From IMG/VR virus record IMGVR_UViG_3300034102_002786, positions 18,413 to 82,412 of that record: a stretch of 64,000 bases of DNA; one strand, given 5' to 3'. Origin of the DNA: a virus (Duplodnaviria > Heunggongvirae > Uroviricota > Caudoviricetes). Each line of letters begins with the position of its first letter. The first letter of the stretch is position 1. Below, piece by piece: positions 46,317-56,702 of this stretch. Position numbers and translations under genes: made by a program. The notes beneath the pieces are model-generated. The model was not told the DNA's origin, did no database searches, and worked only from the letters and a program-made list of their open reading frames with translations.

Positions 46317-46343
46317 AAACTATATTTATACAAAAAATAAATA

Positions 46344-47971: not shown

Positions 47972-48636
47972 TACGTTTGGATGAAGCTTCTTTAGGTAGA
48001 GTTCTCCAACACATTCAGGGCAAAAAGAGTGTGAAAAATTGGGGTATGCTTACCGCATATAGATATTCTAATACTCCAAACCAAAATAAAAAACTTAATA
48101 AAGAATTAGAAGCTGAATTAAGGCAGATGGGGCATGGATTCTTTAAAGTAGAAGGTCATTGGGTTGAGTGCCAGGATGGTAACCTATCATACGAAGATTG
48201 TCCGAAGAACTTACTAAAAGATGCTATCGAAGAATCACTTTTCGTTCCAAATATTTCAGCAAAAGATATTCACAACTTAGGTAAAAAATACGGACAGGAT
48301 GCGGTTATCTTTGGTGGTGAACAAACTAAAGGAAACGCAACTCTTATATTCAAAGATGGTAAGGTAGAAAATATTGGTAAGTTTTCTCCTGATAAAATAC
48401 AACAAGCTTATTCAAAACTAAAAGGCGGAAAAACTTTTGTATTTAAGCCAGAAGAACCTAAAGTTTCTGATGATGAAACAAAGTTAATGCATTTATTACC
48501 AAAAGATATTTTAGACAAAACTATTAAAAATCCAGCAACAGGAAATATGATTAAAGTTAAATCAGCTTTAGCATACGATGAGAAACACCCTGTATTTAAG
48601 GCAGCTCAAACATTTGTTGCACAATCTAAAAAATAA
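47950..48636 (+). CDS. hypothetical protein
   Basis: 228-aa ORF. Confidence 0.5.
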   Translation: MEKGCKVVRLDEASLGRVLQHIQGKKSVKNWGMLTAYRYSNTPNQNKKLNKELEAELRQMGHGFFKVEGHWVECQDGNLSYEDCPKNLLKDAIEESLFVPNISAKDIHNLGKKYGQDAVIFGGEQTKGNATLIFKDGKVENIGKFSPDKIQQAYSKLKGGKTFVFKPEEPKVSDDETKLMHLLPKDILDKTIKNPATGNMIKVKSALAYDEKHPVFKAAQTFVAQSKK

Positions 48637-48637
48637 A

Positions 48638-48672
48638 TTTGGCGGATTCGTATCTTTTTAGTATATTTGTAT
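48638..48672 (+). promoter_or_regulatory. Bacteroidetes-type promoter (-7 TATATTTG at 48662-48669)
   Basis: aaTTTGgcggattcgtatctttttagTATATTTGtat. Confidence 0.45.
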
Positions 48673-48748
48673 ATACTTATTAATTCTATGTGTATAACTC
48701 ATTGATTCTGAGGCATTTATGAAAGTTATCCACATTTAGAAAAAAAGA

Positions 48749-48782
48749 TTTGGTAGTTTGAAAAATTATTTGTATCTTTACA
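48749..48782 (+). promoter_or_regulatory. tandem promoter copy P1 (-33 TTTG at 48749-48752, -7 TATCTTTA at 48773-48780), immediately upstream of the first tRNA
   Basis: aaaaaagaTTTGgtagtttgaaaaattatttgTATCTTTAcaaagtt. Confidence 0.6.
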
Positions 48783-48806
48783 AAGTTCTTTTAAATAATA
48801 TAATAT

Positions 48807-48878
48807 TGTGGGGTAGAGCAGAGGTAGCTCGCAAGGCTCATAACCTTGAGGCCGTTGGTTCGAATCCTTCCCCCGCAA
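48807..48878 (+). tRNA. tRNA-Met-like (anticodon CAT), copy 1; the T-stem has two T-T mismatches
   Basis: Acceptor TGTGGGG/CCCCGCA, D-stem GAGC/GCTC, anticodon stem CAAGG/CCTTG with loop CTCATAA, T-loop TTCGAAT. The acceptor is identical to the tRNA at 52002. Confidence 0.55.
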
Positions 48879-48887
48879 CAAAAAAGA

Positions 48888-48921
48888 TTTGGTAGTTTGA
48901 AAAAATTATCGTATCTTTACA
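48888..48921 (+). promoter_or_regulatory. tandem promoter copy P2
   Basis: aaaaagaTTTGgtagtttgaaaaaattatcgTATCTTTAcaaagtt. Confidence 0.55.
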
Positions 48922-49040
48922 AAGTTAAGGTTGAAGCCATCAACTAATAAAACCGATTGAGTGACTCGTTAAACATTAGTTTCGTTAGAGTGAAAAGAAA
49001 CTACAAAGCCGGATACTTTAACTAACTAATTAAAAAAAGA

Positions 49041-49074
49041 TTTGGTAGTTTGAAAAAATTATCGTATCTTTACT
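49041..49074 (+). promoter_or_regulatory. tandem promoter copy P3
   Basis: aaaaagaTTTGgtagtttgaaaaaattatcgTATCTTTActaagatt. Confidence 0.55.
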
Positions 49075-49140
49075 AAGATTCAAAAATAAAGTAGTTGATT
49101 GGTTCGCCAGAAAACAAAATTGAGAATCTTTAAAAAAAGT

Positions 49141-49174
49141 TTTGGAAAATTGAAAAAGATTTCGTATCTTTACT
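49141..49174 (+). promoter_or_regulatory. tandem promoter copy P4
   Basis: TTTGgaaaattgaaaaagatttcgTATCTTTActctgttc. Confidence 0.5.
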
Positions 49175-50368
49175 CTGTTCTTAAAACAAAAGTTCTTTAA
49201 CATATTGAAGATACTACACATAGTAACCTTGTGTTACATAGTGTACGATGGCCGCCTATGGTCATTAAATAAACTACGAAAGTAGGATAAAGTGAATCAT
49301 TTGGTTAAATGATTTGCGGTTTGTAATCCGTTTAGGGTTATGAGCTTGAGTAGGCAAGTGAGATATTACTTGGGCTTTGTATGTGAGGGTAACACTGTAG
49401 CAGAAGAGTTTGGGTAACTGGGGGTATGTAGAACCTTCGGTTGAGTTCGGAAGAACAATAAGAATAACTCATAGAATTATTGTAAGACATAGAAAGCTAA
49501 TCCCTTTTTACTATTGCGTGATTCAATACCAAAGTGGTCTTGATAATCAAGCTATCCGAAAGGACGTAAGATAAGACTGTGTACGCGTGGTGGCGTTACT
49601 ATCCTTTAATGTGGGACACCAATCCCTATTAATGAAGATGACTTGAAGTATGGCGTTGAGATAACGCATTGGGTAGTTTAGTATTCTCTCGTTCAAAAGA
49701 TGGGGGAGCTGGTGATGGACCGCTACCTGAATCAATCTACAAACCAAAACTTTATATTTTCAATTTAGGTTTGAAAAACTATAATTAAACATAAAGCATA
49801 AGTGTCCATCAGTTGTGACCGAAAGGTGCATACATAGTTGGGAGTTGTTCCCAGCCATAAACGCCCGCAAGGTGGTTATGATTTTTACGAAAAGCTTATA
49901 GACCCGCAAGGTTGAATCAGTTCGGCAGGATTGAATAAGGGGAGTAGTAAGAGAGTAAGTTACAACTTTAAGAGTGGTTATACTTTACTAACCTGCATTG
50001 ACTGGTACATCTCAAAAGGGTGTGGAAACGAAAGGAATCAAAATAATCTTTCTAAAGCTAGTTATCCCAACGTGTATTCTCAACGTTTTTACTTTCTCAA
50101 TGGTTGTATATTGGTTCGATTCCAATAGAGAGAGCAAATTCATCCTGTAAGATGAATTATCGTGGTCTTTCTTTTACATAATGTTCACCTATTGAGAATA
50201 AAGAGTTATGTAGACCTAAAAGAACAAAACTAATGTAGACAGTATAGGCTGGTTTTTGTAAGTTTGACTGTTAATCCCTTATCAAATAGGGCTAAACGAA
50301 AATGGTTGACACGATAGATACCTGTGGTTAGGCAAGCGCTCGGAAAGTTCCCACCTTACAAAAAAACT

Positions 50369-50440
50369 TTCCATTTATGCGGTGTAAGTGTTACGGTAGC
50401 ACATTTCACATTCCAGTGAAAAGGAGAGGTTCAATTCCTT
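50369..50440 (+). ncRNA. tRNA-like element (pseudo-tRNA) with a 6-nt anticodon loop
   Basis: Acceptor TGCGGTG/CACCGCT (6 of 7 bp), T-arm AGAGG-TTCAATT-CCTTT, anticodon stem TTCAC/GTGAA with loop ATTCCA. Confidence 0.2.
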
Positions 50441-50505
50441 TCACCGCTCTACTAACAACTGAAAAGTTGTTCGTTTCATATCTTAATTTTTATTACAACT
50501 TAGAT

Positions 50506-50530
50506 GGGGGTGCTTCGGCATCCCCTATTT
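50506..50530 (+). terminator. rho-independent terminator with a UUCG tetraloop
   Basis: GGGGGTGC-TTCG-GCATCCCC is an 8-bp stem followed by TATTT. Confidence 0.55.
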
Positions 50531-50776
50531 AAGCCTGATGAAACTAACAACAATTCGGAAAAAATTATTTATATATACTTATTAATATAACAAAGTGATG
50601 AAAACTTTAACACTACATACAAATTGTTCGCAACCTACATTGAGAAATGAGTGGGCAGGCATTCGTATGTTTAGTACGATTAGTAATCCGGCAAACTTAG
50701 GCAAGGTGGATTATATTTGTACACAGTTAGAGGAAGCATCAGGTTGGTAATAGATTATACTTAAAACAACATAGAA

Positions 50777-50816
50777 AGACCTCTAACTGAATCAAATCGG
50801 TTAGAGGTTTTTTCGT
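50777..50816 (+). terminator. rho-independent terminator
   Basis: AGACCTCTAAC-(12-nt loop)-GTTAGAGGTTT followed by TTTTT; ends 6 nt before tRNA-Asn. Confidence 0.6.
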
Positions 50817-50821
50817 TTTAA

Positions 50822-50893
50822 GCTCCTTTGGCGCAGCGGTAGCGCAGCAGACTGTTAATCTGTTGGTCCTTGGTTCGAATCCAAGAGGGAGCG
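50822..50893 (+). tRNA. tRNA-Asn (GTT)
   Basis: Acceptor GCTCCTT/AGGGAGC, D GCGC/GCGC, anticodon loop CTGTTAA, T-arm CTTGG-TTCGAAT-CCAAG. Confidence 0.85.
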
Positions 50894-50926
50894 CAGTATA
50901 TGTTCTTTGACATATTGGGATAAGTT

Positions 50927-51001
50927 GGAAGTTTAGCTCAGCTGGTTTAGAGCATCACGTTTACACCGTGAGGGTCATAGGTTCGAATCCTGTAACTTCC
51001 A
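50927..51001 (+). tRNA. tRNA-Val (TAC)
   Basis: Acceptor GGAAGTT/AACTTCC, D GCTC/GAGC, anticodon arm TCACG-TTTACAC-CGTGA, T-loop TTCGAAT. Confidence 0.85.
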
Positions 51002-51106
51002 CAACATGTTCCATACACATTCCTACAATCTCTCAGTTGAAAGCTGTTGTAGGATTGAGTGAGTAGCACGATAGGGCTATCAAATGTGAGTTATATGGAA
51101 CGCCAT

Positions 51107-51188
51107 TGGGGTATCGCATAGTGGCAATTGCGGCTGACTGTAAATCAGCTCTCATTTGAGTTCGGCGGTTCGAGTCCGTCTACCCCAA
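51107..51188 (+). tRNA. tRNA-Tyr (GTA), class II with a long variable arm
   Basis: Acceptor TGGGGTA/TACCCCA, anticodon arm GCTGA-CTGTAAA-TCAGC, 14-nt variable arm, T-arm GGCGG-TTCGAGT-CCGTC. Confidence 0.8.
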
Positions 51189-51192
51189 CACC

Positions 51193-51265
51193 GGTGATGA
51201 AGCTAACTAGGTAGAAGCGAAAGACTGAAAATCTTTAGGAAGTGGTTCGATACCACTCATTACCA
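51193..51265 (+). tRNA. tRNA-Phe (GAA)
   Basis: Acceptor GGTGATG/CATTACC, anticodon arm AAAGA-CTGAAAA-TCTTT, T-arm AGTGG-TTCGATA-CCACT. Confidence 0.8.
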
Positions 51266-51287
51266 CTTAACAATTAAAAAAACAATT

Positions 51288-51497
51288 ATGGCAGATTTTA
51301 ATCATGGAGTTGGTACATTAATAAAAGAGTTGGTGACACCAAAAGGAAAAATTGAAATGGGTAGTAAAGGAATAGTAACTGCGTATCTACCAGAAGATGG
51401 TAAGTTCGCAGTAGATTTTGGAAATGGACAATGGATAACATTTGATAAAATATCATTGGACGAATATTGTAAAATAGAATTAGAAGATAACAATTAA
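51288..51497 (+). CDS. hypothetical protein embedded in the tRNA array
   Basis: 69-aa ORF between tRNA-Phe and tRNA-Lys. Confidence 0.4.
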   Translation: MADFNHGVGTLIKELVTPKGKIEMGSKGIVTAYLPEDGKFAVDFGNGQWITFDKISLDEYCKIELEDNN

Positions 51498-51537
51498 AAA
51501 CAAATACTATGGAAAGTGACAAGTATGACAAAAGTCA

Positions 51538-51611
51538 GACCTCTTAGCTCAGTTGGTTAGAGCACTATACTTTTAATATAGGAGTCAATGGTTCGAATCC
51601 ATTAGGGGTCA
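51538..51611 (+). tRNA. tRNA-Lys (TTT)
   Basis: Acceptor GACCTCT/AGGGGTC, D GCTC/GAGC, anticodon arm CTATA-CTTTTAA-TATAG, T-arm AATGG-TTCGAAT-CCATT. Confidence 0.85.
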
Positions 51612-51686
51612 CAAAAAGTTCCGAACTTAATATTGAGTTAAAATAATGATGTACACATTATACGATAGGATGGAAACCTATCACAT

Positions 51687-51760
51687 TGGAGTATAGCTCA
51701 GTTGGTTAGAGCGCTAATCTGATACGTTAGATGCCGCAGGTTCGAATCCCGCTACTCCAA
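51687..51760 (+). tRNA. tRNA-Ile (GAT)
   Basis: Acceptor TGGAGTA/TACTCCA, D GCTC/GAGC, anticodon arm CTAAT-CTGATAC-GTTAG, T-loop TTCGAAT (one A-C mismatch in the T-stem). Confidence 0.75.
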
Positions 51761-51765
51761 CACAC

Positions 51766-51836
51766 ATGGGTATAGTGAAATGGTATCATGCCGGTCTCCA
51801 AAACCGTTGTTGTGGGTTCGAATCCTACTACCCGTG
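51766..51836 (+). tRNA. tRNA-Trp (CCA)
   Basis: Acceptor ATGGGTA/TACCCGT, D GTGA/TCAT, anticodon loop CTCCAAA, T-arm GTGGG-TTCGAAT-CCTAC. Confidence 0.7.
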
Positions 51837-51841
51837 CAATT

Positions 51842-51914
51842 GGCTCTTTAGTGAAATGGATTATCACACAACGCTACGGACGTTGGGTTAAAGGTTCGAA
51901 TCCTTTAGGGGCTA
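51842..51914 (+). tRNA. tRNA-Arg (ACG)
   Basis: Acceptor GGCTCTT/AGGGGCT (three G-U pairs), D GTGA/TCAC, anticodon arm CAACG-CTACGGA-CGTTG, T-arm AAAGG-TTCGAAT-CCTTT. Confidence 0.7.
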
Positions 51915-51922
51915 CATAATAA

Positions 51923-51993
51923 GGCGAGTTGTTAGAGTGGTGATATGAAGTTCTGCAAAAACTTTTACACAGGTTCGAATCCTGTACTCGCCT
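51923..51993 (+). tRNA. tRNA-Cys (GCA)
   Basis: Acceptor GGCGAGT/ACTCGCC, anticodon arm AAGTT-CTGCAAA-AACTT, T-arm ACAGG-TTCGAAT-CCTGT; the D-arm pairs weakly. Confidence 0.75.
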
Positions 51994-52001
51994 CTTGATA
52001 T

Positions 52002-52073
52002 TGTGGGGAGATTAGGTAATCCGTTTGGTCTCATAAGCCAGATATTCAGGTTCAATTCCTGGCCCCGCAACCA
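52002..52073 (+). tRNA. tRNA-Met-like (CAT), copy 2, with a reduced D-arm and an encoded 3' CCA
   Basis: Acceptor TGTGGGG/CCCCGCA, anticodon loop CTCATAA, T-arm TCAGG-TTCAATT-CCTGG, ends A-CCA. Candidate initiator or Ile-lysidine tRNA. Confidence 0.55.
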
Positions 52074-52076
52074 AAT

Positions 52077-52151
52077 GGTGTTTGAAGCATTAAGGTGATG
52101 CGCTAGTTTGTGGAGCTAGATAAGACGGTTCGATACCGTCCTTACACCCCA
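52077..52151 (+). tRNA. tRNA-His (GTG) with the extra 5' G(-1) and an encoded CCA
   Basis: G-1 plus acceptor GTGTTTG/CTTACAC (two T-T mismatches), D GCAT/ATGC, anticodon arm CTAGT-TTGTGGA-GCTAG, T-arm GACGG-TTCGATA-CCGTC, discriminator C. Confidence 0.65.
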
Positions 52152-52153
52152 AC

Positions 52154-52243
52154 GGAGAGTTGCCTGAGTGGCCGAAAGGGCCGGTTTGCTAAACCGTTGT
52201 ACGGAGTTAATCTGTACCGAGAGTTCGAATCTCTCACTCTCCG
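52154..52243 (+). tRNA. tRNA-Ser (GCT), class II
   Basis: Acceptor GGAGAGT/ACTCTCC, anticodon loop TTGCTAA, long variable arm TGTACGGAGTTAATCTGTACC, T-arm GAGAG-TTCGAAT-CTCTC. Confidence 0.8.
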
Positions 52244-52252
52244 CATAAATAA

Positions 52253-52286
52253 TTTGGATAATTGAAAAATTATTCGTATATTTGTA
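52253..52286 (+). promoter_or_regulatory. Bacteroidetes-type promoter inside the array (-33 TTTG at 52253-52256, -7 TATATTTG at 52277-52284)
   Basis: aaTTTGgataattgaaaaattattcgTATATTTGtataac. Confidence 0.55.
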
Positions 52287-52306
52287 TAACTTAAAACATA
52301 AAAGAG

Positions 52307-52735
52307 ATGAACGTAAAACAGGCTTTAAAAGCAAAGAACAAACTTACCACTCAAATCAAAGCGTTATATGAAATCGCTAAGAATCATAACTCAATTGAGG
52401 AAGGTAACCTGCGTAGATATTCCGTAAATGGAGTATTGAATGAAGCAGAAGAATTGACCAAAGAGTTGGTTGATTTAAAAACTAAAATCCATCAGGCTAA
52501 CCAACCTGTATATGGTAAGATTTTCCTAATGGCAGAGCTAAAAGGAAAGGTAAAGCAACTTAAAGGAATGAGTTGTGAAGAAGGTAAAGTAACCGAAAGA
52601 TTTGGTTCAATCCAATCGGTGAAAGAAGTAGAAATTAATATCGCTCAAAAAGACCAAATGATAAAAGATTTGGAAAATCAAATTGAGGGATTGCAGGATG
52701 AGTTGGATGTGTATAACGCAACTACAACCATCTAA
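52307..52735 (+). CDS. hypothetical coiled-coil protein embedded in the tRNA array
   Basis: 142-aa ORF downstream of the internal promoter. Confidence 0.5.
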   Translation: MNVKQALKAKNKLTTQIKALYEIAKNHNSIEEGNLRRYSVNGVLNEAEELTKELVDLKTKIHQANQPVYGKIFLMAELKGKVKQLKGMSCEEGKVTERFGSIQSVKEVEINIAQKDQMIKDLENQIEGLQDELDVYNATTTI

Positions 52736-52947
52736 TAAAAAATTGGGAAGATGTGAGTGATGAAATTTGTTTTTATTATTATCTTGCAAATCTGACGCAT
52801 TGCCAATCAGTATTAAACGATGATGATTAAATAATTTCAACTCTCAAATCTTGATAGAGTCAACATTCGCGCAATGTCAACACACTCAAAACTCTTATTA
52901 ATTGGTAATCATATTAACTTATTGATTCACCACATCAACCCATCTAT

Positions 52948-53019
52948 GCTCGGTTCGTCTAACGGTTAGGACACCACCCTTTCACGGTGGTGATACGGGT
53001 TCGATTCCCGTACCGAGTA
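52948..53019 (+). tRNA. tRNA-Glu (TTC)
   Basis: Acceptor GCTCGGT/ACCGAGT, D GTCT/GGAC, anticodon arm CCACC-CTTTCAC-GGTGG, T-arm ACGGG-TTCGATT-CCCGT; resembles bacterial tRNA-Glu throughout. Confidence 0.85.
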
Positions 53020-53113
53020 CAATAGCATACATCACAATCAGTCAAGCCGTATTTAGCTGTTAGTGTATGTTAGATAAGAGAAAGAAACGGCTGGGACATT
53101 CTCTTATCAAAAC

Positions 53114-53185
53114 GCTTCCAAAGCATTGCAGGCGATGCGCTTGACTTGTAATCAAGATAATTCGGTTCGATTCCGGATGGAAGCT
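53114..53185 (+). tRNA. tRNA-Thr (TGT)
   Basis: Acceptor GCTTCCA/TGGAAGC, D GCAT/ATGC, anticodon arm CTTGA-CTTGTAA-TCAAG, T-arm TTCGG-TTCGATT-CCGGA. Confidence 0.85.
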
Positions 53186-53260
53186 CAAACTAATTCATTG
53201 AGGTGTTTGTCAACCAGTGCATGACATGGATGGTGCGGATAAAGGTGAATTAGTGATTAA

Positions 53261-53334
53261 GGATTGTTGGTGAAGTTGGTTATCATGCCACCCTGTCACG
53301 GTGGAGTTCACGGGTTCGAGTCCCGTACAATCCG
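53261..53334 (+). tRNA. tRNA-Asp (GTC)
   Basis: Acceptor GGATTGT/ACAATCC, D GTGA/TCAT, anticodon arm CCACC-CTGTCAC-GGTGG, T-arm ACGGG-TTCGAGT-CCCGT. Confidence 0.85.
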
Positions 53335-53582
53335 CAAAAGGTATAATTAGATTGTATATGCAATTAGCTCGGCAATCTTTAACACCTGCAGATGTGAGGT
53401 GATTATACTTTTAAGTTGTTTCATACACTTAACACACCTAGTAACAAGGTAAGGCACATAGAGTTACATAGAGGCATGGAGTAATTACCCAACGCCACAT
53501 TCGGACTACAAATGTAGATTAGGTTCAGACGTTGTAGAGAAAGAGATGTTAAGAGTAAACTTGCAAGTTGAAACAACTGTTT

Positions 53583-53659
53583 GGTTCGGTAGCTCAGTTG
53601 GATAGAGCAACAGCCTTCTAAGCTGTGGGTCAAAGGTTCGAATCCTTTCCGAATCACCA
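53583..53659 (+). tRNA. tRNA-Arg (TCT) with an encoded CCA
   Basis: Acceptor GGTTCGG/CCGAATC, D GCTC/GAGC, anticodon arm ACAGC-CTTCTAA-GCTGT, T-arm AAAGG-TTCGAAT-CCTTT, then A-CCA. Confidence 0.85.
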
Positions 53660-53674
53660 AATAAAAAGTAAGAC

Positions 53675-54121
53675 ATGAAAAATGTAACTTTAGTAACATG
53701 CTTCTTTTTGTTATTCATTCCGCATAATATAAATAACTCTGAAAGGAGTGAGGAAGAAGTTGTGGATGAAATAATAGAAAAGAAAAAGTTACCTTATGAT
53801 TTAGTGACCGTAACAACGTACACTGTATCTAAAGGTGAAACCGATTCAACTCCATTAATTACCGCAAGTGGTTACAAATTGGATAGCCTTAATCCAAAGA
53901 AACAAAAGGTAATAGCAATAAGCAGAGACCTGAAACGAAAGTATAAGTTTGGACAAAAAGTAAGAGTGAAGGGTGCTGGTAAATTAGATGGTGTATATAC
54001 CGTCAGAGATTTAATGGCGAAGAGATGGACAAAAAAGATTGATATATTAATTAACCCAGATGATAAAGGAACAAAAATCAGAAAGGTTAAGTTATATAAT
54101 GTAGCAAACATAGGGAATTAG
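53675..54121 (+). CDS. secreted 3D-domain protein (MltA/YocH-like cell-wall-binding or lytic fold)
   Basis: N-terminal signal-like segment, then VTVTTYTVSKGETDSTPLITASGYKL...VRVKGAGKLDGVYTVRD, which follows the 3D-domain pattern (TAYT..E.D..P.TASG). Its 3' end overlaps tRNA-Pro by 10 nt. Confidence 0.6.
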   Translation: MKNVTLVTCFFLLFIPHNINNSERSEEEVVDEIIEKKKLPYDLVTVTTYTVSKGETDSTPLITASGYKLDSLNPKKQKVIAISRDLKRKYKFGQKVRVKGAGKLDGVYTVRDLMAKRWTKKIDILINPDDKGTKIRKVKLYNVANIGN

Positions 54122-54185
54122 CGTAGCCCGGTATCGCGCTTGGTTTGGGACCAAGAGGTCGTCAGTTCGAATCTGGCATTCCCTA
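54112..54185 (+). tRNA. tRNA-Pro (TGG)
   Basis: Acceptor AGGGAAT/ATTCCCT, anticodon arm CTTGG-TTTGGGA-CCAAG, T-arm GTCAG-TTCGAAT-CTGGC. Confidence 0.8.
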
Positions 54186-54218
54186 CGAAAAGATTTGGAT
54201 AAGTGAAATATAAAATAA

Positions 54219-54446
54219 ATGGCAAAGTATATTAAAACCGCATTCATACGAGATTTAGAAATCAAATTGCAAAATGAAGAAATTTCATATGGTAAAGCGA
54301 TTGAACTTATTCAAGAAGAAGTTATTGAAAATTATAAAAAAGATAATACCTTATTGAAAAAAATAAAAAGATTATTAGGTGAGGTTTGGCTAGGATTTAA
54401 GATAGCTGAAGGAAACCGAAATAAATCTCAATGGGGTAAATTTTAA
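54219..54446 (+). CDS. hypothetical protein embedded in the tRNA array
   Basis: 75-aa ORF. Confidence 0.4.
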   Translation: MAKYIKTAFIRDLEIKLQNEEISYGKAIELIQEEVIENYKKDNTLLKKIKRLLGEVWLGFKIAEGNRNKSQWGKF

Positions 54447-54447
54447 A

Positions 54448-54482
54448 TTAGGATAATTAAAATATTATTCGTATCTTTGTAT
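54448..54482 (+). promoter_or_regulatory. promoter inside the array (-7 TATCTTTG at 54472-54479; degenerate -33)
   Basis: ggataattaaaatattattcgTATCTTTGtatag. Confidence 0.45.
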
Positions 54483-54504
54483 AGTTATTTGAAATAGTAT
54501 CGCC

Positions 54505-54590
54505 GCCGAGGTGATGGAATGGTAGACATGAAAGACTTAAAATCTTTTGAGCAGAAATAGCTCGTGTGGGTTCGACTCCCATCCTCGGTA
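54505..54590 (+). tRNA. tRNA-Leu (TAA), class II
   Basis: Acceptor GCCGAGG/CCTCGGT, D-arm TG-ATGG-AATGGTAG-ACAT, anticodon arm AAAGA-CTTAAAA-TCTTT, 18-nt variable arm, T-arm GTGGG-TTCGACT-CCCAT. Confidence 0.8.
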
Positions 54591-54600
54591 CGTTCAATTA

Positions 54601-54674
54601 GGGGAAGTAGCTCAGTTGGCTAGAGCATCTGCCTTGCACGCAGAGGGTCATGGGTTCGACTCCCTTCTTCTCCA
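54601..54674 (+). tRNA. tRNA-Ala (TGC) with the G3:U70 identity pair
   Basis: Acceptor GGGGAAG/CTTCTCC (G3-T70 wobble), D GCTC/GAGC, anticodon arm TCTGC-CTTGCAC-GCAGA, T-loop TTCGACT. Confidence 0.8.
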
Positions 54675-54678
54675 CATC

Positions 54679-54752
54679 GGACCTATAGCTCATTCGGTTA
54701 GAGCAACTGACTCATAATCAGTAGGTGCTTGGTTCGATTCCAAGTGGGTCCA
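54679..54752 (+). tRNA. tRNA-Met (CAT), copy 3, canonical elongator-like
   Basis: Acceptor GGACCTA/TGGGTCC, D GCTC/GAGC, anticodon arm ACTGA-CTCATAA-TCAGT, T-arm CTTGG-TTCGATT-CCAAG. Confidence 0.85.
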
Positions 54753-54760
54753 CAAAAATT

Positions 54761-54833
54761 GCGGAAGTAGCTCATTCGGTAGAGCACAACCTTGCCAAGG
54801 TTGGGGTGGCCAGTTCGAGCCTGGTCTTCCGCT
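54761..54833 (+). tRNA. tRNA-Gly (GCC)
   Basis: Acceptor GCGGAAG/CTTCCGC, D GCTC/GAGC, anticodon arm CAACC-TTGCCAA-GGTTG, T-arm GCCAG-TTCGAGC-CTGGT. Confidence 0.85.
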
Positions 54834-54893
54834 CAAAAGGACTTTAATGGTTGAAGTACAAAACCGAAGTAGGTTAGTCCCACCTACACAAAA

Positions 54894-54966
54894 GCGAGAG
54901 TAGCTCATTTGGTAGAGCGGTAGCCTTCCAAGCTTCAGGTGGCCAGTTCGAGCCTGGTCTCTCGCT
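54894..54966 (+). tRNA. tRNA-Gly (TCC)
   Basis: Acceptor GCGAGAG/CTCTCGC, D GCTC/GAGC, anticodon loop CTTCCAA (one mismatch in the stem), T-arm GCCAG-TTCGAGC-CTGGT. Confidence 0.75.
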
Positions 54967-55025
54967 CAAGTGGGCCTGTTAGTATTAGGCCGCAAGAAGA
55001 ATAGATGTTTTTCAATTACTACAAA

Positions 55026-55053
55026 CTCAAGCATTAATTTGCTTGGGTTTTAT
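55026..55053 (+). terminator. hairpin plus T-tract (weak terminator or attenuator) before tRNA-Gln
   Basis: CTCAAGCA-ttaatt-TGCTTGGG followed by TTTTATT. Confidence 0.35.
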
Positions 55054-55125
55054 TGCCCGATGATGTAATGGTTAGCATCACAGATTTTGATTCTGTTCGT
55101 ATTGGTTCGAGTCCAGTTCGGGTAA
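55054..55125 (+). tRNA. tRNA-Gln (TTG)
   Basis: Acceptor TGCCCGA/TCGGGTA, anticodon arm ACAGA-TTTTGAT-TCTGT, T-arm ATTGG-TTCGAGT-CCAGT. The track's TTG-start ORF at 55053 overlaps this tRNA and is rejected. Confidence 0.75.
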
Positions 55126-55136
55126 CAAAAAATATT

Positions 55137-55598
55137 ATGAAATATAAAATTTCATTTGAAGATATAAATAAAATAAAAGAGGTTTACAAAAATGGTAATG
55201 ATACTAGATATGTACCTAGCAATTCAGATGATATAAATAGTCCATATTTCATAAAAAGTGAAAGATTTTTTTGTGATTTAAAAAATGATGAATTACTAGA
55301 TATTATAAAAAATAATATACCAATAGATGATGTTAATGAATGTATAACATCAATTCATTATATAAATTACAAAAAAGGTGAAGGGGCAAAAGAACATAGT
55401 GATATTGGTGCATCTAATAAAACTTTTATTTTCATTCTAAACGATGAATTTGAAGGTGGTGAATTTCATTTGGATAAAAATTATGTTCCATTAGTGAAAG
55501 GAGATATAATAGCTTTTAATGGAAATCAGCTACACTTAGTTAAACCAATTAAAAAAGGAAATAGAGAGGTTTTAGTTGTCTTTCTAAAAAATAAATAA
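55137..55598 (+). CDS. 2OG-Fe(II) oxygenase superfamily protein (prolyl-4-hydroxylase/PKHD-like)
   Basis: HSD...H facial triad candidates (EHSDIG, then LHLVKP) and a C-terminal RE.LVVF strand. Start set at the ATG after tRNA-Gln. Confidence 0.65.
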   Translation: MKYKISFEDINKIKEVYKNGNDTRYVPSNSDDINSPYFIKSERFFCDLKNDELLDIIKNNIPIDDVNECITSIHYINYKKGEGAKEHSDIGASNKTFIFILNDEFEGGEFHLDKNYVPLVKGDIIAFNGNQLHLVKPIKKGNREVLVVFLKNK

Positions 55599-55625
55599 AA
55601 ATTTTAATAATTAAAAACAAATGTT

Positions 55626-55889
55626 ATGGGATTATTTTGGACGTATTATGTAATTTGTTTCATCTATTGTCTTGTAATGTCAATACGAAAATGGAATAGA
55701 GATGTAAGAGCAGGTGGTTTAGGTATATCACCTGGTTTAGATTCTTTGGCTCTATTGATTATGTGTTGGATATTAGCACCAGTAGATATATTCTTAACTT
55801 GGGTTAGGGTATATAAAGAAGCAGAAGAAGCAAGAAGAAATCAAAGTACTTTAGATACTAAAGACTTTAAAGATGAAAAAGTATTCTAA
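55626..55889 (+). CDS. small membrane protein
   Basis: 87-aa ORF with two TM helices. Confidence 0.45.
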   Translation: MGLFWTYYVICFIYCLVMSIRKWNRDVRAGGLGISPGLDSLALLIMCWILAPVDIFLTWVRVYKEAEEARRNQSTLDTKDFKDEKVF

Positions 55890-55906
55890 TTATTAGAGTA
55901 CTAAAC

Positions 55907-55991
55907 AGAGAGTTGGCCGAGTGGTTGATGGCGGCAGTCTTGAAAACTGTTTTACTGAAAGGTAACGGGGGTTCGAATCCCTCACTCTCTG
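55907..55991 (+). tRNA. tRNA-Ser (TGA), class II
   Basis: Acceptor AGAGAGT/ACTCTCT, 3-bp D-stem GCC/GGC, anticodon arm GCAGT-CTTGAAA-ACTGT, 16-nt variable arm, T-arm GGGGG-TTCGAAT-CCCTC. Confidence 0.8.
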
Positions 55992-55996
55992 CACAT

Positions 55997-56143
55997 TGTA
56001 AGGTGTTGGAATTGGCAGACAAGCCCTCCTGTCTCGGGGGTGGTGAGCACGAAATAGGTTAGTAATATGGGGTAGACCACCATCCTGCAGGAATGTGTTA
56101 CTAACTGAATCGCACTATGGTGGTTCGAATCCATCTCTTACAG
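55997..56143 (+). tRNA. 147-nt tRNA-like gene (Leu-like D-arm) carrying a ~78-nt insertion between the anticodon-arm region and the T-arm; anticodon unresolved; possibly intron-containing or disrupted
   Basis: Acceptor TGTAAGG/TCTTACA (7 bp), D-arm TG-TTGG-AATTGGCAG-ACAA is almost identical to the adjacent tRNA-Leu genes, candidate anticodon arm CCCTC-CTGTCTC-GGGGG, T-arm GGTGG-TTCGAAT-CCATC. The insert 56041-56118 contains a 9-bp hairpin GGTTAGTAA...TTACTAACT and the palindrome TCCTGCAGGA. Confidence 0.4.
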
Positions 56144-56148
56144 CAAAG

Positions 56149-56230
56149 GCCCCGTTGATGGAATTGGTAGACATGCCAGACTTAGGATCTGGTGCTGAGA
56201 AGCATAAGAGTTCGAGTCTCTTATGGGGCA
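56149..56230 (+). tRNA. tRNA-Leu (TAG), class II
   Basis: Acceptor GCCCCGT/ATGGGGC, D-arm TG-ATGG-AATTGGTAG-ACAT, anticodon arm CCAGA-CTTAGGA-TCTGG, 13-nt variable arm, T-arm AAGAG-TTCGAGT-CTCTT. Confidence 0.8.
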
Positions 56231-56246
56231 CTCAAAAACAAAATTT

Positions 56247-56702
56247 ATGAAGTACAAAAAGCTTTATGGTAGAGAAGAATTTGAACTTATCCCTTATGTT
56301 AAAAACTATTTTGAAAACAATGAAAATATTGAACTTCTTATCGGATGTGATTCGCAAAACTTTGCCGATAAAACAATATATGCCGTTGTTGTGGCTTTGT
56401 ACCATAACGGAAAAGGAGCTCATGTACTTTATAGAAGATGGAAAGCAGATAGAGAACCAACCCGTTCAGTAAGATTATTAAACGAAGTTTGGTATGCAAT
56501 TGAAGCAGCTGAATATTTAAGAGAAGCTGGTATTCCAAAACCAAAGTGGATTGATATTGATTTGAATCCAGATCCACGCTTTAAATCAAATGAAGTGTTC
56601 AGACAAGCAGTTGGTATGGTAGAAGGTATGGGGTATGAAGTACGATATAAAACATTAGGTCCAATTGCAACTTATGCAGCTGACCACTTAGTAAAAATAT
56701 AA
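56247..56702 (+). CDS. hypothetical protein
   Basis: Start moved to the ATG at 56247, because the track start at 56223 lies inside tRNA-Leu. Confidence 0.5.
   Translation: MKYKKLYGREEFELIPYVKNYFENNENIELLIGCDSQNFADKTIYAVVVALYHNGKGAHVLYRRWKADREPTRSVRLLNEVWYAIEAAEYLREAGIPKPKWIDIDLNPDPRFKSNEVFRQAVGMVEGMGYEVRYKTLGPIATYAADHLVKI

What the first reader, a model, noticed from the sequence alone, without database searches (positions are those of the whole stretch)
48807..56230. Phage tRNA array decoding all 20 amino acids (26 canonical tRNAs), biased to A/U-ending codon readers
I identified anticodons Met (CAT, three copies), Asn GTT, Val TAC, Tyr GTA, Phe GAA, Lys TTT, Ile GAT, Trp CCA, Arg ACG and TCT, Cys GCA, His GTG (with G-1), Ser GCT and TGA, Glu TTC, Thr TGT, Asp GTC, Pro TGG, Leu TAA and TAG, Ala TGC (G3:U70), Gly GCC and TCC, and Gln TTG. 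Thirteen have T at the wobble position, matching the AT-rich codon usage. Several encode their own CCA. Internal promoters, small ORFs and a 2OG oxygenase are interspersed. A complete set suggests translational autonomy during host shutoff.
Basis: seen in the sequence. Interest (0 to 1): 0.6.

Follow-up and report, generated by a model that had tools for sequence, protein, structure and literature searches.

The report
Phage tRNA island with GOLLD RNA

Summary
Small corrections: 12, not 13, have U34, and only 3 encode CCA. The set is close to a minimal complete decoder. It is cognate to the commonest codon of every family in which a U34 tRNA competes, and the only unreadable codon (CGG) occurs once in 15,921 window codons. 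Related 200-270 kb IMG/VR phage contigs carry the same array in nearly the same order, so it is a conserved jumbo-phage feature. The host is probably Bacteroidota, judging by promoter type and the absence of Shine-Dalgarno sites. Phage tRNA sets covering all 20 amino acids are already known. GOLLD is followed at once by a tRNA "top-half" minihelix and later by a Gly-like tRNA with an aberrant anticodon loop. GOLLD next to tRNA arrays is also published. A 147-nt tRNA-shaped RNA with an ~80-nt variable arm (55997-56143) has strong covariation and occurs in at least 100 phage contigs, but has no Rfam family.

The parts
48638..49172 (+). Five tandem Bacteroidota-type promoter copies (TTTGG..N..GTAT[A/C]TTT[G/A]) at 48638, 48749, 48888, 49041 and 49141. 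The second precedes tRNA-Met and the fifth ends 12 nt before the conserved GOLLD block.
   Evidence: The motif occurs 24 times in the window against 6.0 expected, with 0 of 100 shuffles reaching 24.
48807..48879 (+). tRNA-Met(CAT) number 1, initiator-like: A11:U24, D-arm close to my recollection of the E. coli tRNAfMet sequence, U1:A72. Relatives have C1xA72, U1xU72 or C1xU72 mismatches. The T-stem has two U.U mismatches in the window copy.
   Evidence: (59.9 bits).
49184..50088 (+). GOLLD RNA, full length about 900 nt. The Rfam model covers only the conserved 3' domain, 49669-50086.
   Evidence: 295.9 bits, gathering score 150, model positions 1-416 of 416. The block 49184-50135 is conserved in all relatives. 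GOLLD sits in the same place in L001, L003, L005, L010, L014 and L017.
50092..50135 (+). tRNA 'top-half' minihelix starting 4-6 nt after the last GOLLD hairpin. It has a 7-bp acceptor-like stem, AATGGTT, a canonical T-arm (GGTTCGATTCC) and a C at the discriminator position, but no anticodon arm.
   Evidence: Across 9 distinct sequences, 98.3% of cells are paired, 3 of 7 acceptor pairs show compensatory change, and the covariation score is 0.406 against 0.177 for shuffles (0 of 500).
50136..50448 (+). Insertion relative to the closest relative L001. Its 3' end is the Gly-like tRNA.
   Evidence: the L001 alignment jumps from window 50135 to 50449. No homolog of 50137-50377 was found in any fetched locus.
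50378..50449 (+). Non-canonical tRNA-Gly(UCC)-like. It keeps G1:C72, C2:G71, G3:C70, U73, C35 and C36, but the anticodon loop is C-AU-UCC-A-G (8 nt, or 6 nt if C:G pairs).
   Evidence: 'tRNA-???', anticodon 'tc'; Rfam tRNA 34.1 bits; fold z-score -3.9. Homologous copies directly follow GOLLD in L003, L010, L016, L018, L024, L027, L057 and L092.
50598..50750 (+). Small ORF (50 aa), conserved in L001, L013 and L014 (63-88% aa identity). It is followed by a hairpin plus T-run at 50781-50815, 6 nt before tRNA-Asn.
   Evidence: No Pfam hit.
50822..50894 (+). tRNA-Asn(GTT)
   Evidence: 69.6 bits.
50927..51002 (+). tRNA-Val(TAC)
   Evidence: 68.7 bits.
51107..51189 (+). tRNA-Tyr(GTA)
   Evidence: 53.9 bits.
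51193..51266 (+). tRNA-Phe(GAA)
   Evidence: 58.6 bits.
51288..51497 (+). Small ORF (69 aa), identical in L001.
   Evidence: No Pfam hit.
51538..51612 (+). tRNA-Lys(TTT)
   Evidence: 69.8 bits.
51687..51761 (+). tRNA-Ile(GAT)
   Evidence: 67.1 bits.
51766..51837 (+). tRNA-Trp(CCA)
   Evidence: 58.3 bits.
51842..51915 (+). tRNA-Arg(ACG)
   Evidence: 55.7 bits.
51923..51994 (+). tRNA-Cys(GCA)
   Evidence: 54.9 bits.
52002..52073 (+). tRNA-Met(CAT) number 2. It has U1:A72, A73, an encoded CCA and an unusually small D-loop. It is the weakest Rfam score of the set.
   Evidence: (30.3 bits against a gathering score of 29).
52077..52151 (+). tRNA-His(GTG) with encoded G-1, C73 and CCA. The acceptor stem has U5.U68 and U6.U67 mismatches, which are also present in L001, L003 and L013.
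   Evidence: (41.4 bits).
52154..52244 (+). tRNA-Ser(GCT)
   Evidence: 52.3 bits.
52253..52284 (+). Promoter motif copy upstream of ORF 52307.
52307..52735 (+). ORF of 142 aa, coiled-coil-like, unknown function. Present in L012, L014, L019 and L073, but elsewhere in those loci.
52948..53020 (+). tRNA-Glu(TTC)
   Evidence: 64.8 bits.
53026..53108 (+). Conserved 83-nt spacer element, 93-94% identical in 5 loci. Unknown.
   Evidence: fold z-score -2.9; no Rfam hit.
53114..53186 (+). tRNA-Thr(TGT)
   Evidence: 51.6 bits.
53187..53260 (+). Conserved 74-nt hairpin element. Its core also lies directly after GOLLD in L005 and L007.
   Evidence: fold z-score -2.6.
53261..53335 (+). tRNA-Asp(GTC)
   Evidence: 63.7 bits.
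53413..53578 (+). Conserved ~165-nt element, 92-95% identical in 7 loci whose proteins are only about 70-80% identical. It has a 9-bp terminal inverted repeat. It could be an RNA or a miniature mobile element; this is unresolved.
   Evidence: only 1 compensatory pair; no Rfam hit; z-score -1.3.
53583..53659 (+). tRNA-Arg(TCT), CCA encoded.
   Evidence: (71.9 bits).
53675..54121 (+). ORF of 148 aa, conserved between tRNA-Arg(TCT) and tRNA-Leu(TAA) in 14 loci. Its stop codon lies inside tRNA-Pro. Unknown function (phrog_21574).
54112..54186 (+). tRNA-Pro(TGG). It sits in a different slot in the relatives.
   Evidence: (63.9 bits).
54219..54446 (+). ORF of 75 aa, found only in this window among the fetched loci.
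54449..54479 (+). Promoter-like -7 box GTATCTTTG with a degenerate -33 (TTAG), upstream of tRNA-Leu(TAA).
54505..54591 (+). tRNA-Leu(TAA)
   Evidence: 55.4 bits.
54601..54675 (+). tRNA-Ala(TGC), G3:U70.
   Evidence: (67.7 bits).
54679..54753 (+). tRNA(CAT) number 3: elongator Met or tRNA-Ile2 (lysidine). It has C4:G69 and C5:G68, as I recall E. coli tRNA-Ile2 having.
   Evidence: (69.3 bits). ATA makes up 40% of Ile codons.
54761..54834 (+). tRNA-Gly(GCC)
   Evidence: 60.7 bits.
54894..54967 (+). tRNA-Gly(TCC), canonical CTTCCAA loop.
   Evidence: (59.0 bits).
55023..55053 (+). Strong hairpin plus UUUUAU immediately upstream of tRNA-Gln. Terminator or processing site.
   Evidence: spacer z-score -5.0.
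55054..55126 (+). tRNA-Gln(TTG)
   Evidence: 53.5 bits.
55134..55598 (+). 2OG-Fe(II) oxygenase (154 aa from the ATG). Variable cargo, absent from the fetched relatives.
55626..55889 (+). 87-aa predicted membrane protein, conserved upstream of tRNA-Ser(TGA) in 13 loci.
55907..55992 (+). tRNA-Ser(TGA)
   Evidence: 57.5 bits.
55997..56143 (+). tRNA-shaped RNA with an ~80-nt branched variable arm. It occupies a normal 'tRNA slot', 4 nt after tRNA-Ser and 5 nt before tRNA-Leu. Invariant bases are U1:A72, G2:C71, G73, G34, U35, C36 and C38. Position 37 is a pyrimidine.
   Evidence: 96.9% of cells paired, 32 of 45 pairs with compensatory change, covariation score 0.489 against 0.175 for shuffles and at most 0.109 for slid controls. 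No Rfam family. No INPHARED match.
56149..56231 (+). tRNA-Leu(TAG)
   Evidence: 52.6 bits.
56247..56702 (+). DUF458/YkuK RNase H-like protein (PF04308). It is embedded in or flanks the array in all 20 related loci.
   Evidence: (8e-19). Most homologs are 151 aa, so the start is probably 56247.

Best explanation
The region is the tRNA/non-coding-RNA island of an uncultured jumbo phage of roughly 200-270 kb, probably infecting Bacteroidota. It encodes a near-minimal but complete decoding set: 26 tRNAs, 24 anticodons and all 20 amino acids, with U34 readers wherever there is a choice. Inferred mechanism: transcription starts from Bacteroidota-type promoters, five of them stacked at the head of the island, and gives polycistronic precursors. 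Host RNase P and RNase Z cut these at each tRNA or tRNA-like module. A CCA-adding enzyme completes the 23 tRNAs that lack CCA. Host synthetases charge them. The result is that the phage's AT-rich genes can be translated whatever happens to the host tRNA pool, whether that is dilution, degradation late in infection, or cleavage by anticodon nucleases. The island also produces GOLLD, a giant RNA that forms multimeric cages in published work and has no known function. GOLLD has its own promoter, and its 3' end is probably set by RNase P cleavage at the tRNA-like minihelix that follows it. At least one more conserved tRNA-shaped RNA of unknown role is made here too. Shown: the genes, their conservation, the codon match, the promoter motif and the RNA structures. 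Inferred: the transcription units, the processing, the charging and the selective reason.
For: The 26 tRNAs are confirmed by two methods. The same array, in near-identical order, occurs in 20 IMG/VR loci from contigs up to 274 kb. GOLLD lies in the same position in six of seven relatives searched. Codon usage of 70 window ORFs has GC3 = 0.228, and every U34 tRNA is cognate to the commonest codon of its family. CGG, the only codon with no possible reader, occurs once in 15,921 codons. ATA (484 codons) requires an Ile2-type CAT tRNA, and three CAT tRNAs are present. By my arithmetic, coverage is 88.4% of codons if U34 reads only A and G, and more than 99.9% with four-way wobble. The promoter motif TTTG-N19-21-TAnnTTTR occurs 24 times against 6.0 expected, and copies sit in intergenic gaps, including five at 48638-49172. 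Shine-Dalgarno-like 4-mers precede only 3 of 51 start codons against a 9.5% background, and the upstream regions are A-rich, as described for Bacteroidota (PMC6847099). Dense spacing of 2-9 nt between many tRNAs fits co-transcription and RNase P/Z processing. The GOLLD 3' minihelix shows covariation. Published context: GOLLD is 'often near tRNA islands', and GOLLD env-38 lies 'downstream of Met-tRNA' (PMC12286853). Jumbo phages with tRNAs for all 20 amino acids are known (XacN1, PMC5852040).
Against: There are no expression data, so the promoters, processing sites and transcription units are predictions. Hairpin plus T-run structures sit directly upstream of tRNA-Asn (50781-50815) and tRNA-Gln (55023-55053) and could terminate read-through, and no promoter motif was found for the 50822-52244 block. 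The host is not identified, so codon compensation cannot be told apart from pool replacement or anti-nuclease protection. Several tRNAs have oddities that might impair function: U.U mismatches in tRNA-His and in the T-stem of tRNA-Met number 1, and Met number 2 scores only 30.3 bits. The window holds no CCA-adding enzyme, synthetase or TilS, so the system depends on the host.
Confidence: 0.75

Rival explanations
1. Pure codon compensation. The tRNAs exist only to top up isoacceptors that are rare in a host with a different, GC-richer codon usage.
For: The U34 bias matches the phage's A-ending codon preference. This is the classical explanation, as summarised in PMC10264068.
Against: A complete 20-amino-acid set includes tRNAs with no synonymous choice (Met, Trp) and the G34 readers that every bacterium has. 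That looks like wholesale replacement, not a top-up. If the host is an AT-rich Bacteroidota, as the promoter and start-site context suggest, the mismatch would be small. The host is unknown, so this was not tested.
Confidence: 0.3
2. Counter-defence. The phage tRNAs replace or outlast host tRNAs that are cleaved by anticodon nucleases or tRNA-depleting defence systems. The non-canonical tRNA-likes (the Gly-like tRNA and the giant-arm RNA with a GUC loop) act as nuclease-resistant variants or decoys.
For: This hypothesis is published for phage tRNAs (PMC10264068). The Gly-like tRNAs next to GOLLD vary exactly at loop positions 32/33 while keeping the GlyRS identity bases. The giant-arm RNA keeps G34, U35, C36 and C38 but has a pyrimidine at 37 and a variable position 33.
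Against: The 26 canonical tRNAs have ordinary-looking anticodon loops. No host nuclease is known. The decoy idea is speculation.
Confidence: 0.3
3. The region is a cellular or mobile-element tRNA array, like the Mycobacterium tRNA arrays that carry GOLLD, and not part of a phage.
For: GOLLD-bearing tRNA arrays exist in bacterial chromosomes (PMC6582537).
Against: All 64 kb codes on one strand with tight, overlapping genes. Relatives are IMG/VR viral contigs of 207-274 kb. Several ORFs hit PHROG families. No housekeeping genes were seen. No capsid or terminase gene was identified in the window itself.
Confidence: 0.05
4. Many of the genes are decaying pseudogenes carried along by a large genome, so the 'complete set' is an accident.
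For: A few members are degenerate: the Gly-like tRNA with an aberrant loop, Met number 2 at 30 bits, and stem mismatches in His and Met number 1.
Against: The same 20-amino-acid repertoire and gene order persist across relatives whose proteins are only 58-92% identical. 24 of 26 tRNAs score above 50 bits. Even the odd elements show compensatory changes.
Confidence: 0.05

Closest known systems
Large tRNA gene clusters of jumbo phages, such as Xanthomonas phage XacN1 (56 tRNA genes for all 20 amino acids; PMC5852040) and Shigella phage Sf14 (26 tRNAs for 19 amino acids; PMC12482277)
   Same: Dozens of tRNA genes clustered on one strand, covering all or nearly all amino acids, interspersed with small ORFs, in a phage of 200 kb or more.
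   Different: Here the set is close to minimal: one tRNA per codon family, U34 only, and no C34 isoacceptors. It sits in a different, uncultured lineage with no megablast relative in INPHARED. The host is probably Bacteroidota.
GOLLD RNA (Rfam RF02032) next to tRNA islands: GOLLD env-38 'downstream of Met-tRNA' (PMC12286853) and GOLLD inside Mycobacterium tRNA arrays with an embedded pseudo-tRNA (PMC6582537; Morgado 2020, cited)
   Same: A GOLLD 3' domain matching the full Rfam model lies just downstream of a tRNA-Met and at the head of a tRNA array, with tRNA-like sequence attached.
   Different: In this clade the tRNA-like module is not in the internal linker. It directly follows the 3' terminal hairpin, either as a full Gly(UCC)-like tRNA or as a minihelix reduced to acceptor stem plus T-arm. 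Most other IMG/VR GOLLDs I sampled end in a hairpin plus T-run instead. I found no description of this 3' module in the papers I could read.
Phage T4 tRNA cluster with its two small stable RNAs of unknown function (species 1 and 2, rnaC/rnaD). This rests on my own knowledge and was not checked here.
   Same: Non-tRNA stable RNAs of about 120-140 nt sit in tRNA slots of a phage tRNA cluster and are presumably released by the same processing enzymes.
   Different: No sequence similarity was detected: blastn of 55997-56146 against 50,697 phage records gave no match. The structure here is an explicit cloverleaf with a giant variable arm.
MALAT1/mascRNA-type 3'-end formation in mammals. This rests on my own knowledge and is an analogy only.
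   Same: A long non-coding RNA is directly followed by a tRNA-like structure that RNase P could cut, which would define the 3' end of the long RNA.
   Different: A different domain of life, and no homology. Cleavage here is only inferred.
Type II (long variable arm) tRNAs and tRNA-Asp identity (review PMC9976931)
   Same: The 147-nt RNA has a cloverleaf, a Leu/Ser-type D-arm, a long variable arm and G73 (the serine identity features). It also has all five strong aspartate determinants: G73, G34, U35, C36 and C38.
   Different: The variable arm is about 80 nt and branched, whereas by my recollection type II tRNAs have roughly 13-21 nt. Position 37 is a pyrimidine, position 33 is not always U, and pair 1:72 is U:A, whereas the G1:C72 pair is strictly conserved in bacterial tRNA-Asp. 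ARAGORN and the Rfam tRNA model both reject it.

Membership tests
tRNA (Rfam RF00005), 26 genes | Cloverleaf scoring above the family's gathering score (29 bits), plus a 7-nt anticodon loop called by an independent tool | tested here: met
   26 hits of 30.3-71.9 bits; the same 26 called by ARAGORN with 3-nt anticodons.
Phage tRNA array covering all 20 amino acids | At least one anticodon for each of the 20 amino acids, clustered in a viral genome | tested here: met
   One search gives 20 isotypes by anticodon; the homologous arrays lie on IMG/VR viral contigs of 207-274 kb. The window itself was not shown to contain virion genes.
GOLLD RNA (RF02032) | Match to the conserved 3' domain model above the gathering score (150 bits), over the full model length | tested here: met
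   295.9 bits, E 1e-83 to 1e-84, model positions 1-416 of 416, not truncated.
GOLLD RNA (RF02032) | Variable 5' domain giving a total length above about 800 nt | tested here: inconclusive
   about 485 nt upstream of the Rfam hit (49184-49668) are conserved at 70-87% in all relatives, and a promoter motif ends at 49172. The 5' domain structure was not modelled.
GOLLD RNA (RF02032) | Homo-oligomeric nanocage assembly | not testable with these tools
   Known for GOLLD env-38 by cryo-EM (PMC12286853).
Bacterial initiator tRNA (tRNA-Met number 1, 48807) | Unpaired or weak 1:72 pair, A11:U24, and three G:C pairs at the bottom of the anticodon stem (features from my own knowledge) | tested here: inconclusive
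   A11:U24 is present. The 1:72 pair is U:A in the window and CxA, UxU or CxU in relatives. Only two G:C pairs (G30:C40, G31:C39) are present.
tRNA-Ile2 (lysidine, CAT anticodon), candidate 54679 | TilS determinants (C4:G69 and C5:G68 in E. coli, from my own knowledge), or a score from an isotype-specific model | tested here: inconclusive
   C4:G69 and C5:G68 are present in the window copy; they are not conserved in all relatives (U5.G68 or A4:U69). Isotype models are not available here. The need for this tRNA is shown by 484 ATA codons.
tRNA-Gly (for the odd tRNA-like at 50378) | Bacterial GlyRS identity set (U73, G1:C72, C2:G71, C35, C36; PMC9976931) together with a canonical 7-nt anticodon loop carrying U33 | tested here: not met
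   The identity bases are present, but the loop is 6 or 8 nt. Relatives have G33 or C33. ARAGORN gives no isotype. It is Gly-like but not a canonical tRNA-Gly.
tRNA-Asp or tRNA-Ser (for the 147-nt RNA at 55997) | Canonical tRNA geometry recognised by tRNA finders, plus the isotype's identity set | tested here: not met
   The Asp determinants G73, G34, U35, C36 and C38 are invariant, and G73 plus a long variable arm gives a Ser-like identity. But the Rfam tRNA model scores 12.6 bits, ARAGORN finds nothing even with introns allowed, position 37 is a pyrimidine, and the variable arm is about 80 nt.
2OG-Fe(II) oxygenase (PF13640) | Score above Pfam's gathering score | tested here: met
   28.7 bits against 27, a marginal pass; phrog_61 '2OG-Fe(II) oxygenase', 1.2e-15.
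DUF458/YkuK RNase H-like (PF04308) | Score above Pfam's gathering score | tested here: met
   68.4 bits against 25; 1021 homologs with E <= 1e-10; all 120 listed carry PF04308.

The most novel reading that the evidence does not exclude
The 147-nt element at 55997-56143 is the first-noticed member of a widespread, phage-specific class of tRNA-shaped RNAs with an ~80-nt branched variable arm. It keeps the full aspartate identity set (G73, G34, U35, C36, C38), but its anticodon loop (pyrimidine at 37, variable position 33) is unfit for normal decoding. That would make it an aminoacylatable non-decoding tRNA, a decoy for an enzyme that reads GUC/GUN anticodon loops, or a protein-binding scaffold released by tRNA processing. 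Together with the tRNA-like 3' cap on GOLLD, it suggests that these islands use tRNA modules as processing punctuation for a family of non-tRNA phage RNAs.
Probability: 0.45. Interest if true: 0.7.

Novelty: new member of a known kind. Interest (0 to 1): 0.45.

Why it matters
The array itself adds one more example, from an uncultured and probably Bacteroidota-infecting jumbo-phage clade, to a well-documented phenomenon. Its value is as a clean case of a near-minimal complete decoder matched to the phage's own codon usage. That fits replacement of the host tRNA pool better than a simple top-up. More useful for open questions: the function of GOLLD is unknown more than 15 years after its discovery. 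This clade offers a conserved, testable architecture: stacked promoters, initiator tRNA, GOLLD, then a tRNA-like 3' handle. It predicts how the RNA is made and trimmed. The giant-arm tRNA-like RNA is abundant in phage metagenomes, strongly structured, and missing from Rfam 15 and from the papers I could search. If it is chargeable, it would be a new kind of viral tRNA mimic.

Tried and rejected
- **Close relatives in INPHARED.** Megablast of the array against INPHARED phages gave only tRNA-sized hits and no close relative.
- **Sigma-70 promoters and terminators.** Neither scan showed clear enrichment (38 against 29.5 +/- 4.4; 7 against 5.3). I dropped sigma-70 promoters in favour of the Bacteroidota-type motif.
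- **Second repeated motif.** ATATACTTATTA (48671 and 50573) is not convincingly enriched: 5 sites against 2.2 expected, reached by 3 of 100 shuffles.
- **Tests on the 147-nt RNA.** ARAGORN with introns allowed found nothing on the Ser-Leu spacer. Rfam E-value searches on short sub-regions gave no family for the 147-nt RNA or the Glu-Arg spacers. Blastn of the 147-nt RNA against INPHARED gave no match.
- **Genome scan.** The single genome-contig scan, with a 16-mer core, returned mostly chance hits. About 500 are expected in 596 Gb, and only 3 of 120 loci hold the whole element, all short contigs in MAG bins (Bacteroidia, Algoriphagus and one untitled locus). It gives only a weak hint of the host.
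- **Host name.** The search for homologs of the DUF458 protein returned no organism names.
- **The 165-nt element (53413-53578).** It is too conserved to test for covariation: only 1 compensatory pair. RNA or miniature mobile element remains open.
- **Gene neighbours of the giant-arm RNA.** They showed no consistent translation-related partner.
- **Giant eukaryotic virus.** I considered this because of the collagen repeats, glycosyltransferases and tRNAs, and rejected it. All genes are on one strand with overlapping, operon-like spacing, tRNA-His has an encoded G-1, the promoter motif is bacterial, and the relatives are filed as phage in IMG/VR.
- **Cyanophage.** I considered this because of the heme oxygenase, bilin reductase, SAM decarboxylase and CobS-like genes. 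I judged it less likely than a Bacteroidota phage, given the promoter motif and the depletion of Shine-Dalgarno sites. It is not excluded.

Full report
**1. Observation**

ARAGORN finds 27 genes on the + strand between 48807 and 56231. Of these, 26 are canonical tRNAs and one is an odd 'tRNA-???' with a 2-nt 'anticodon' at 50378-50449. The Rfam tRNA covariance model independently finds the same 26 above its gathering score (30.3-71.9 bits).

Reading the sequences confirms the encoded G-1 and C73 of tRNA-His and the G3:U70 pair of tRNA-Ala. Two details need correcting:
- Twelve, not thirteen, have T at position 34.
- Only three encode CCA: Met at 52002, His, and Arg-TCT.

**2. What kind of genome**

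The window has 30-35% G+C, positive GC skew throughout, and almost all ORFs on the + strand with overlapping ends. It has no close relative among 50,697 deposited phage genomes.

I used the RNase H-like ORF at the 3' edge of the array as a probe. It retrieved 20 IMG/VR loci at 58-92% amino-acid identity, from viral contigs of up to 274 kb.

These relatives carry the same + strand array with nearly the same order: Asn-Val-Tyr-Phe-Lys-(Pro)-Ile-Trp-Arg-Cys-(Met)-His-Ser ... Glu-Thr-Asp-Arg ... Leu-Ala-Met-Gly-Gly-Gln-Ser-Leu. Loci whose flanks span the array hold 21-26 tRNAs per 20-kb stretch. The array is therefore a conserved feature of a jumbo-phage clade, not a local accident.

The embedded ORFs are of two kinds:
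- Conserved in relatives: the 148-aa ORF at 53675, the 87-aa membrane protein at 55626, and the DUF458 protein at 56247.
- Variable cargo: the 2OG oxygenase at 55134 and the ORF at 54219.

**3. Host**

A motif matching the Bacteroidota sigma-A consensus (TTTG-N19-21-TAnnTTTR) occurs 24 times against 6.0 expected. The strong copies share an extended consensus and lie in intergenic gaps. Sigma-70-type sites are not clearly enriched.

Shine-Dalgarno-like 4-mers precede only 3 of 51 start codons, below the 9.5% background, and positions -13 to -3 are A-rich. This is the pattern described for Flavobacterium johnsoniae and other Bacteroidetes (PMC6847099).

Three short MAG contigs hold the giant-arm RNA described below; two carry titles, Bacteroidia and Algoriphagus. 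I consider a Bacteroidota host probable but not shown. The cyanophage-like auxiliary genes in the window keep an alternative open.

**4. Decoding capacity**

I tabulated 15,921 codons from 70 + strand ORFs. GC3 is 0.228. In every family where a U34 tRNA competes with other possible readers, the phage's tRNA is cognate to the commonest codon: GCA, GAA, AAA, TTA, CCA, CAA, AGA, TCA, ACA and GTA.

There are no C34 isoacceptors apart from the obligatory CAT and CCA. The only sense codon that no member could read (CGG) occurs once. ATA makes up 40% of Ile codons (484), so one CAT tRNA should be a lysidine-type tRNA-Ile2.

Coverage, by my arithmetic:
- 88.4% of codons if U34 reads only A and G.
- Essentially 100% if U34 reads all four bases, as in other minimal tRNA sets.

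So the 'bias to A/U-ending codon readers' is real. It is better described as a near-minimal complete set.

**5. The three CAT tRNAs**

- **Number 1 (48807)** is initiator-like. It has A11:U24 and a D-arm close to my recollection of the E. coli tRNAfMet sequence. Its 1:72 pair is weak in the window and mismatched in relatives.
- **Number 3 (54679)** has C4:G69 and C5:G68, as I recall E. coli tRNA-Ile2 having, but relatives do not all keep them.
- **Number 2 (52002)** scores barely above threshold and has a tiny D-loop.

Which of numbers 2 and 3 is Ile2 remains open.

**6.

Rfam finds a full-model GOLLD match at 49669-50086 (295.9 bits against a gathering score of 150). The conserved block in relatives runs from 49184 to 50135. 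A promoter copy ends at 49172. The RNA is therefore about 900 nt, and the Rfam model covers only its 3' domain.

GOLLD lies between the lone initiator-like tRNA-Met and the dense array, and it does so in six of seven relatives tested. Some relatives also have a tmRNA 1-1.4 kb upstream, but the window has none.

This context is published. GOLLD is 'often near tRNA islands', env-38 is 'downstream of Met-tRNA', and tRNAs can be embedded in its linker (PMC12286853; PMC6582537; PMC12990946).

**7. The GOLLD 3' flank**

In this clade the last GOLLD hairpin is followed within about 5-12 nt by a tRNA-like module. It takes one of two forms.

In the window and eight other distinct sequences, it is a minihelix at 50092-50135. 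This has a 7-bp acceptor-like stem, AATGGTT and a canonical T-arm, but no anticodon arm. The stem keeps pairing through compensatory changes: 98.3% of cells are paired, and the covariation score is 0.406 against 0.177 for shuffles (0 of 500).

In other relatives (L003, L010, L016, L018, L024, L027, L057, L092), the same position holds one or two complete Gly(UCC)-like tRNAs. These keep the bacterial GlyRS identity bases, but the anticodon loop often lacks U33 (CGUCCAG, CCUCCAG, CGACCAG). The identity set is taken from PMC9976931.

The window's odd tRNA-like at 50378 belongs to this family. Its loop is CAUUCCAG. It has been displaced 290 nt downstream by an insertion that L001 lacks.

Outside the clade, most GOLLDs I sampled end in a hairpin plus T-run.

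What survives in the minihelix is exactly the acceptor/T-arm half that RNase P, RNase Z and the CCA-adding enzyme recognise (established knowledge). I therefore infer that the module serves as a processing handle that defines the GOLLD 3' end. This is an inference, by analogy with MALAT1/mascRNA.

**8. A tRNA-shaped RNA with a giant variable arm**

The 156-nt 'spacer' between tRNA-Ser(UGA) and tRNA-Leu(UAG) has 49% G+C and is up to 91% identical in 13 relatives, more conserved than its surroundings. It begins 4 nt after tRNA-Ser and ends 5 nt before tRNA-Leu, so it fills a tRNA slot.

About 100 fetched loci hold the whole element, giving 69 distinct sequences of 144-176 nt.

RNAalifold on 32 diverse copies gives this structure:
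- a 7-bp acceptor stem;
- a short D-stem with a large D-loop, which in many copies carries an extra hairpin;
- a 5-bp anticodon stem with a 7-nt loop YYGUCYC;
- a T-arm;
- an ~80-nt branched variable arm.

Support is strong. 96.9% of cells are paired and 32 of 45 pairs show compensatory changes. The covariation score is 0.489, against 0.175 for shuffles (0 of 500) and at most 0.109 for slid controls.

The invariant bases include G73, G34, U35, C36 and C38. These are the five strong aspartate identity determinants (PMC9976931). A long variable arm plus G73 is the serine identity signature in the same review.

However, position 37 is a pyrimidine, position 33 varies, and pair 1:72 is U:A. ARAGORN and the Rfam tRNA model both reject it.

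It has no Rfam family and no blastn match in deposited phages. I found no description in the searchable literature. Its gene neighbours give no functional clue. Its function is unknown. An aminoacylatable non-decoding tRNA mimic or a decoy are my leading guesses.

**9. Other conserved spacers**

Several tRNA-sized gaps are far more conserved than neighbouring proteins:
- 53413-53578: 165 nt, 92-95% identical in 7 loci, with a 9-bp terminal inverted repeat. Covariation is untestable.
- 53026-53108.
- 53187-53260, whose core also follows GOLLD in L005 and L007.
- 54835-54888.

None matches Rfam. The 'tRNA array' is better seen as an RNA-gene island.

**10. Interpretation and novelty**

Phage tRNA clusters covering all 20 amino acids are known (XacN1, PMC5852040), and so is GOLLD next to such clusters. 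The finding as stated is therefore a new member of a known kind.

'Translational autonomy' overstates it, because processing, CCA addition for 23 tRNAs, lysidine formation and charging all depend on enzymes not seen here. The data fit independence from the host tRNA pool.

Whether the selective reason is codon compensation, replacement of degraded host tRNAs or evasion of tRNA-targeting defence (PMC10264068) cannot be decided without the host.

The parts I could not find described in Rfam or the searchable papers are the tRNA-like 3' cap on GOLLD and, above all, the giant-arm tRNA-shaped RNA.

Noticed in passing
window 56247-56702; L094 (Ruegeria phage RpAliso) 4986-5480: A DUF458/YkuK RNase H-like protein (PF04308) sits in or next to the tRNA array in all 20 related loci. 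It also sits inside the tRNA array of the unrelated Ruegeria phage RpAliso, next to a peptidyl-tRNA hydrolase, and overlaps a tRNA-Ala annotation in Leptolyngbya phage Lbo-JY46. In Vibrio phage phi-Grn1 it is not near tRNAs. It may be an RNA-processing nuclease linked to phage tRNA islands. It has 1021 metagenomic homologs with E <= 1e-10.
   Followed up: partly
window 55997-56143: A tRNA-shaped RNA with an ~80-nt branched variable arm and an invariant aspartate identity set. It has strong covariation, occurs in at least 100 phage contigs and has no Rfam family. See the report.
   Followed up: yes
window 53413-53578: A ~165-nt element that is 92-95% identical across 7 phage loci whose proteins are about 70-80% identical. 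It has a 9-bp terminal inverted repeat (GTTGTTTCA...TGAAACAAC) and GCAAGTTG at both ends. It could be a structured RNA or a miniature mobile element.
   Followed up: partly
window 53187-53260; L005 8222-8270; L007 8174-8222: A ~50-nt hairpin core (TTTGTCAACCAGTGCATGACATGGATGGTGC) lies between tRNA-Thr and tRNA-Asp in the window. In L005 and L007 it lies directly after GOLLD, where the window has the minihelix.
   Followed up: no
L003 6184-6557, L005 5648-6023, L007 5598-5973, L017 6473-6828, L018 6466-6852: Relatives encode a tmRNA 1-1.4 kb upstream of tRNA-Met/GOLLD, with tags ending ...DYAVAA, ...DYAIAA or GEYNYAIAA. The window has no tmRNA anywhere in its 64 kb. An S-AdoMet lyase-family gene (47950-48636) lies directly upstream of tRNA-Met in the window.
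   Followed up: partly
window 44817-46799 and 29106-30311: A cyanophage-like set of auxiliary genes: heme oxygenase (44817), ferredoxin-dependent bilin reductase (45322), SAM decarboxylase (46344) and a CobS/CbbQ-like AAA_5 ATPase (29106). This is odd for a phage whose promoters and start sites look Bacteroidota-type.
   Followed up: no
window 1-16200, 18219-20609, 55134-55598, 56704-58597: A large glycan-biosynthesis cluster (two NAD epimerases/dehydratases, a GT2, a HAD-nucleotidyltransferase fusion, a GT29 sialyltransferase-like protein and a cytidylyltransferase-RraA fusion) plus a 796-aa collagen-repeat protein. The prolyl-hydroxylase-type 2OG oxygenase inside the tRNA array could act on the collagen-like protein.
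   Followed up: no
window 52077-52151 and 48807-48879: tRNA-His has two adjacent U.U mismatches in its acceptor stem (5:68 and 6:67), conserved in L001, L003 and L013. The window's initiator-like tRNA-Met has two U.U mismatches in its T-stem, which relatives have only in part.
   Followed up: partly
window 54112-54121: The stop codon of the conserved 148-aa ORF lies inside the 5' acceptor strand of tRNA-Pro, a 10-nt overlap between gene and tRNA.
   Followed up: no
window 58598-59020: A SET-domain protein (PF00856, 6.7e-11) lies just downstream of the island.
   Followed up: no
window 48880-49172: Promoter copies 3 and 4 are each followed by only about 50-110 nt before the next promoter. The first segment (48926-49030) is partly conserved in more distant relatives. 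These could be short transcripts, or simply stacked promoters driving GOLLD.
   Followed up: partly
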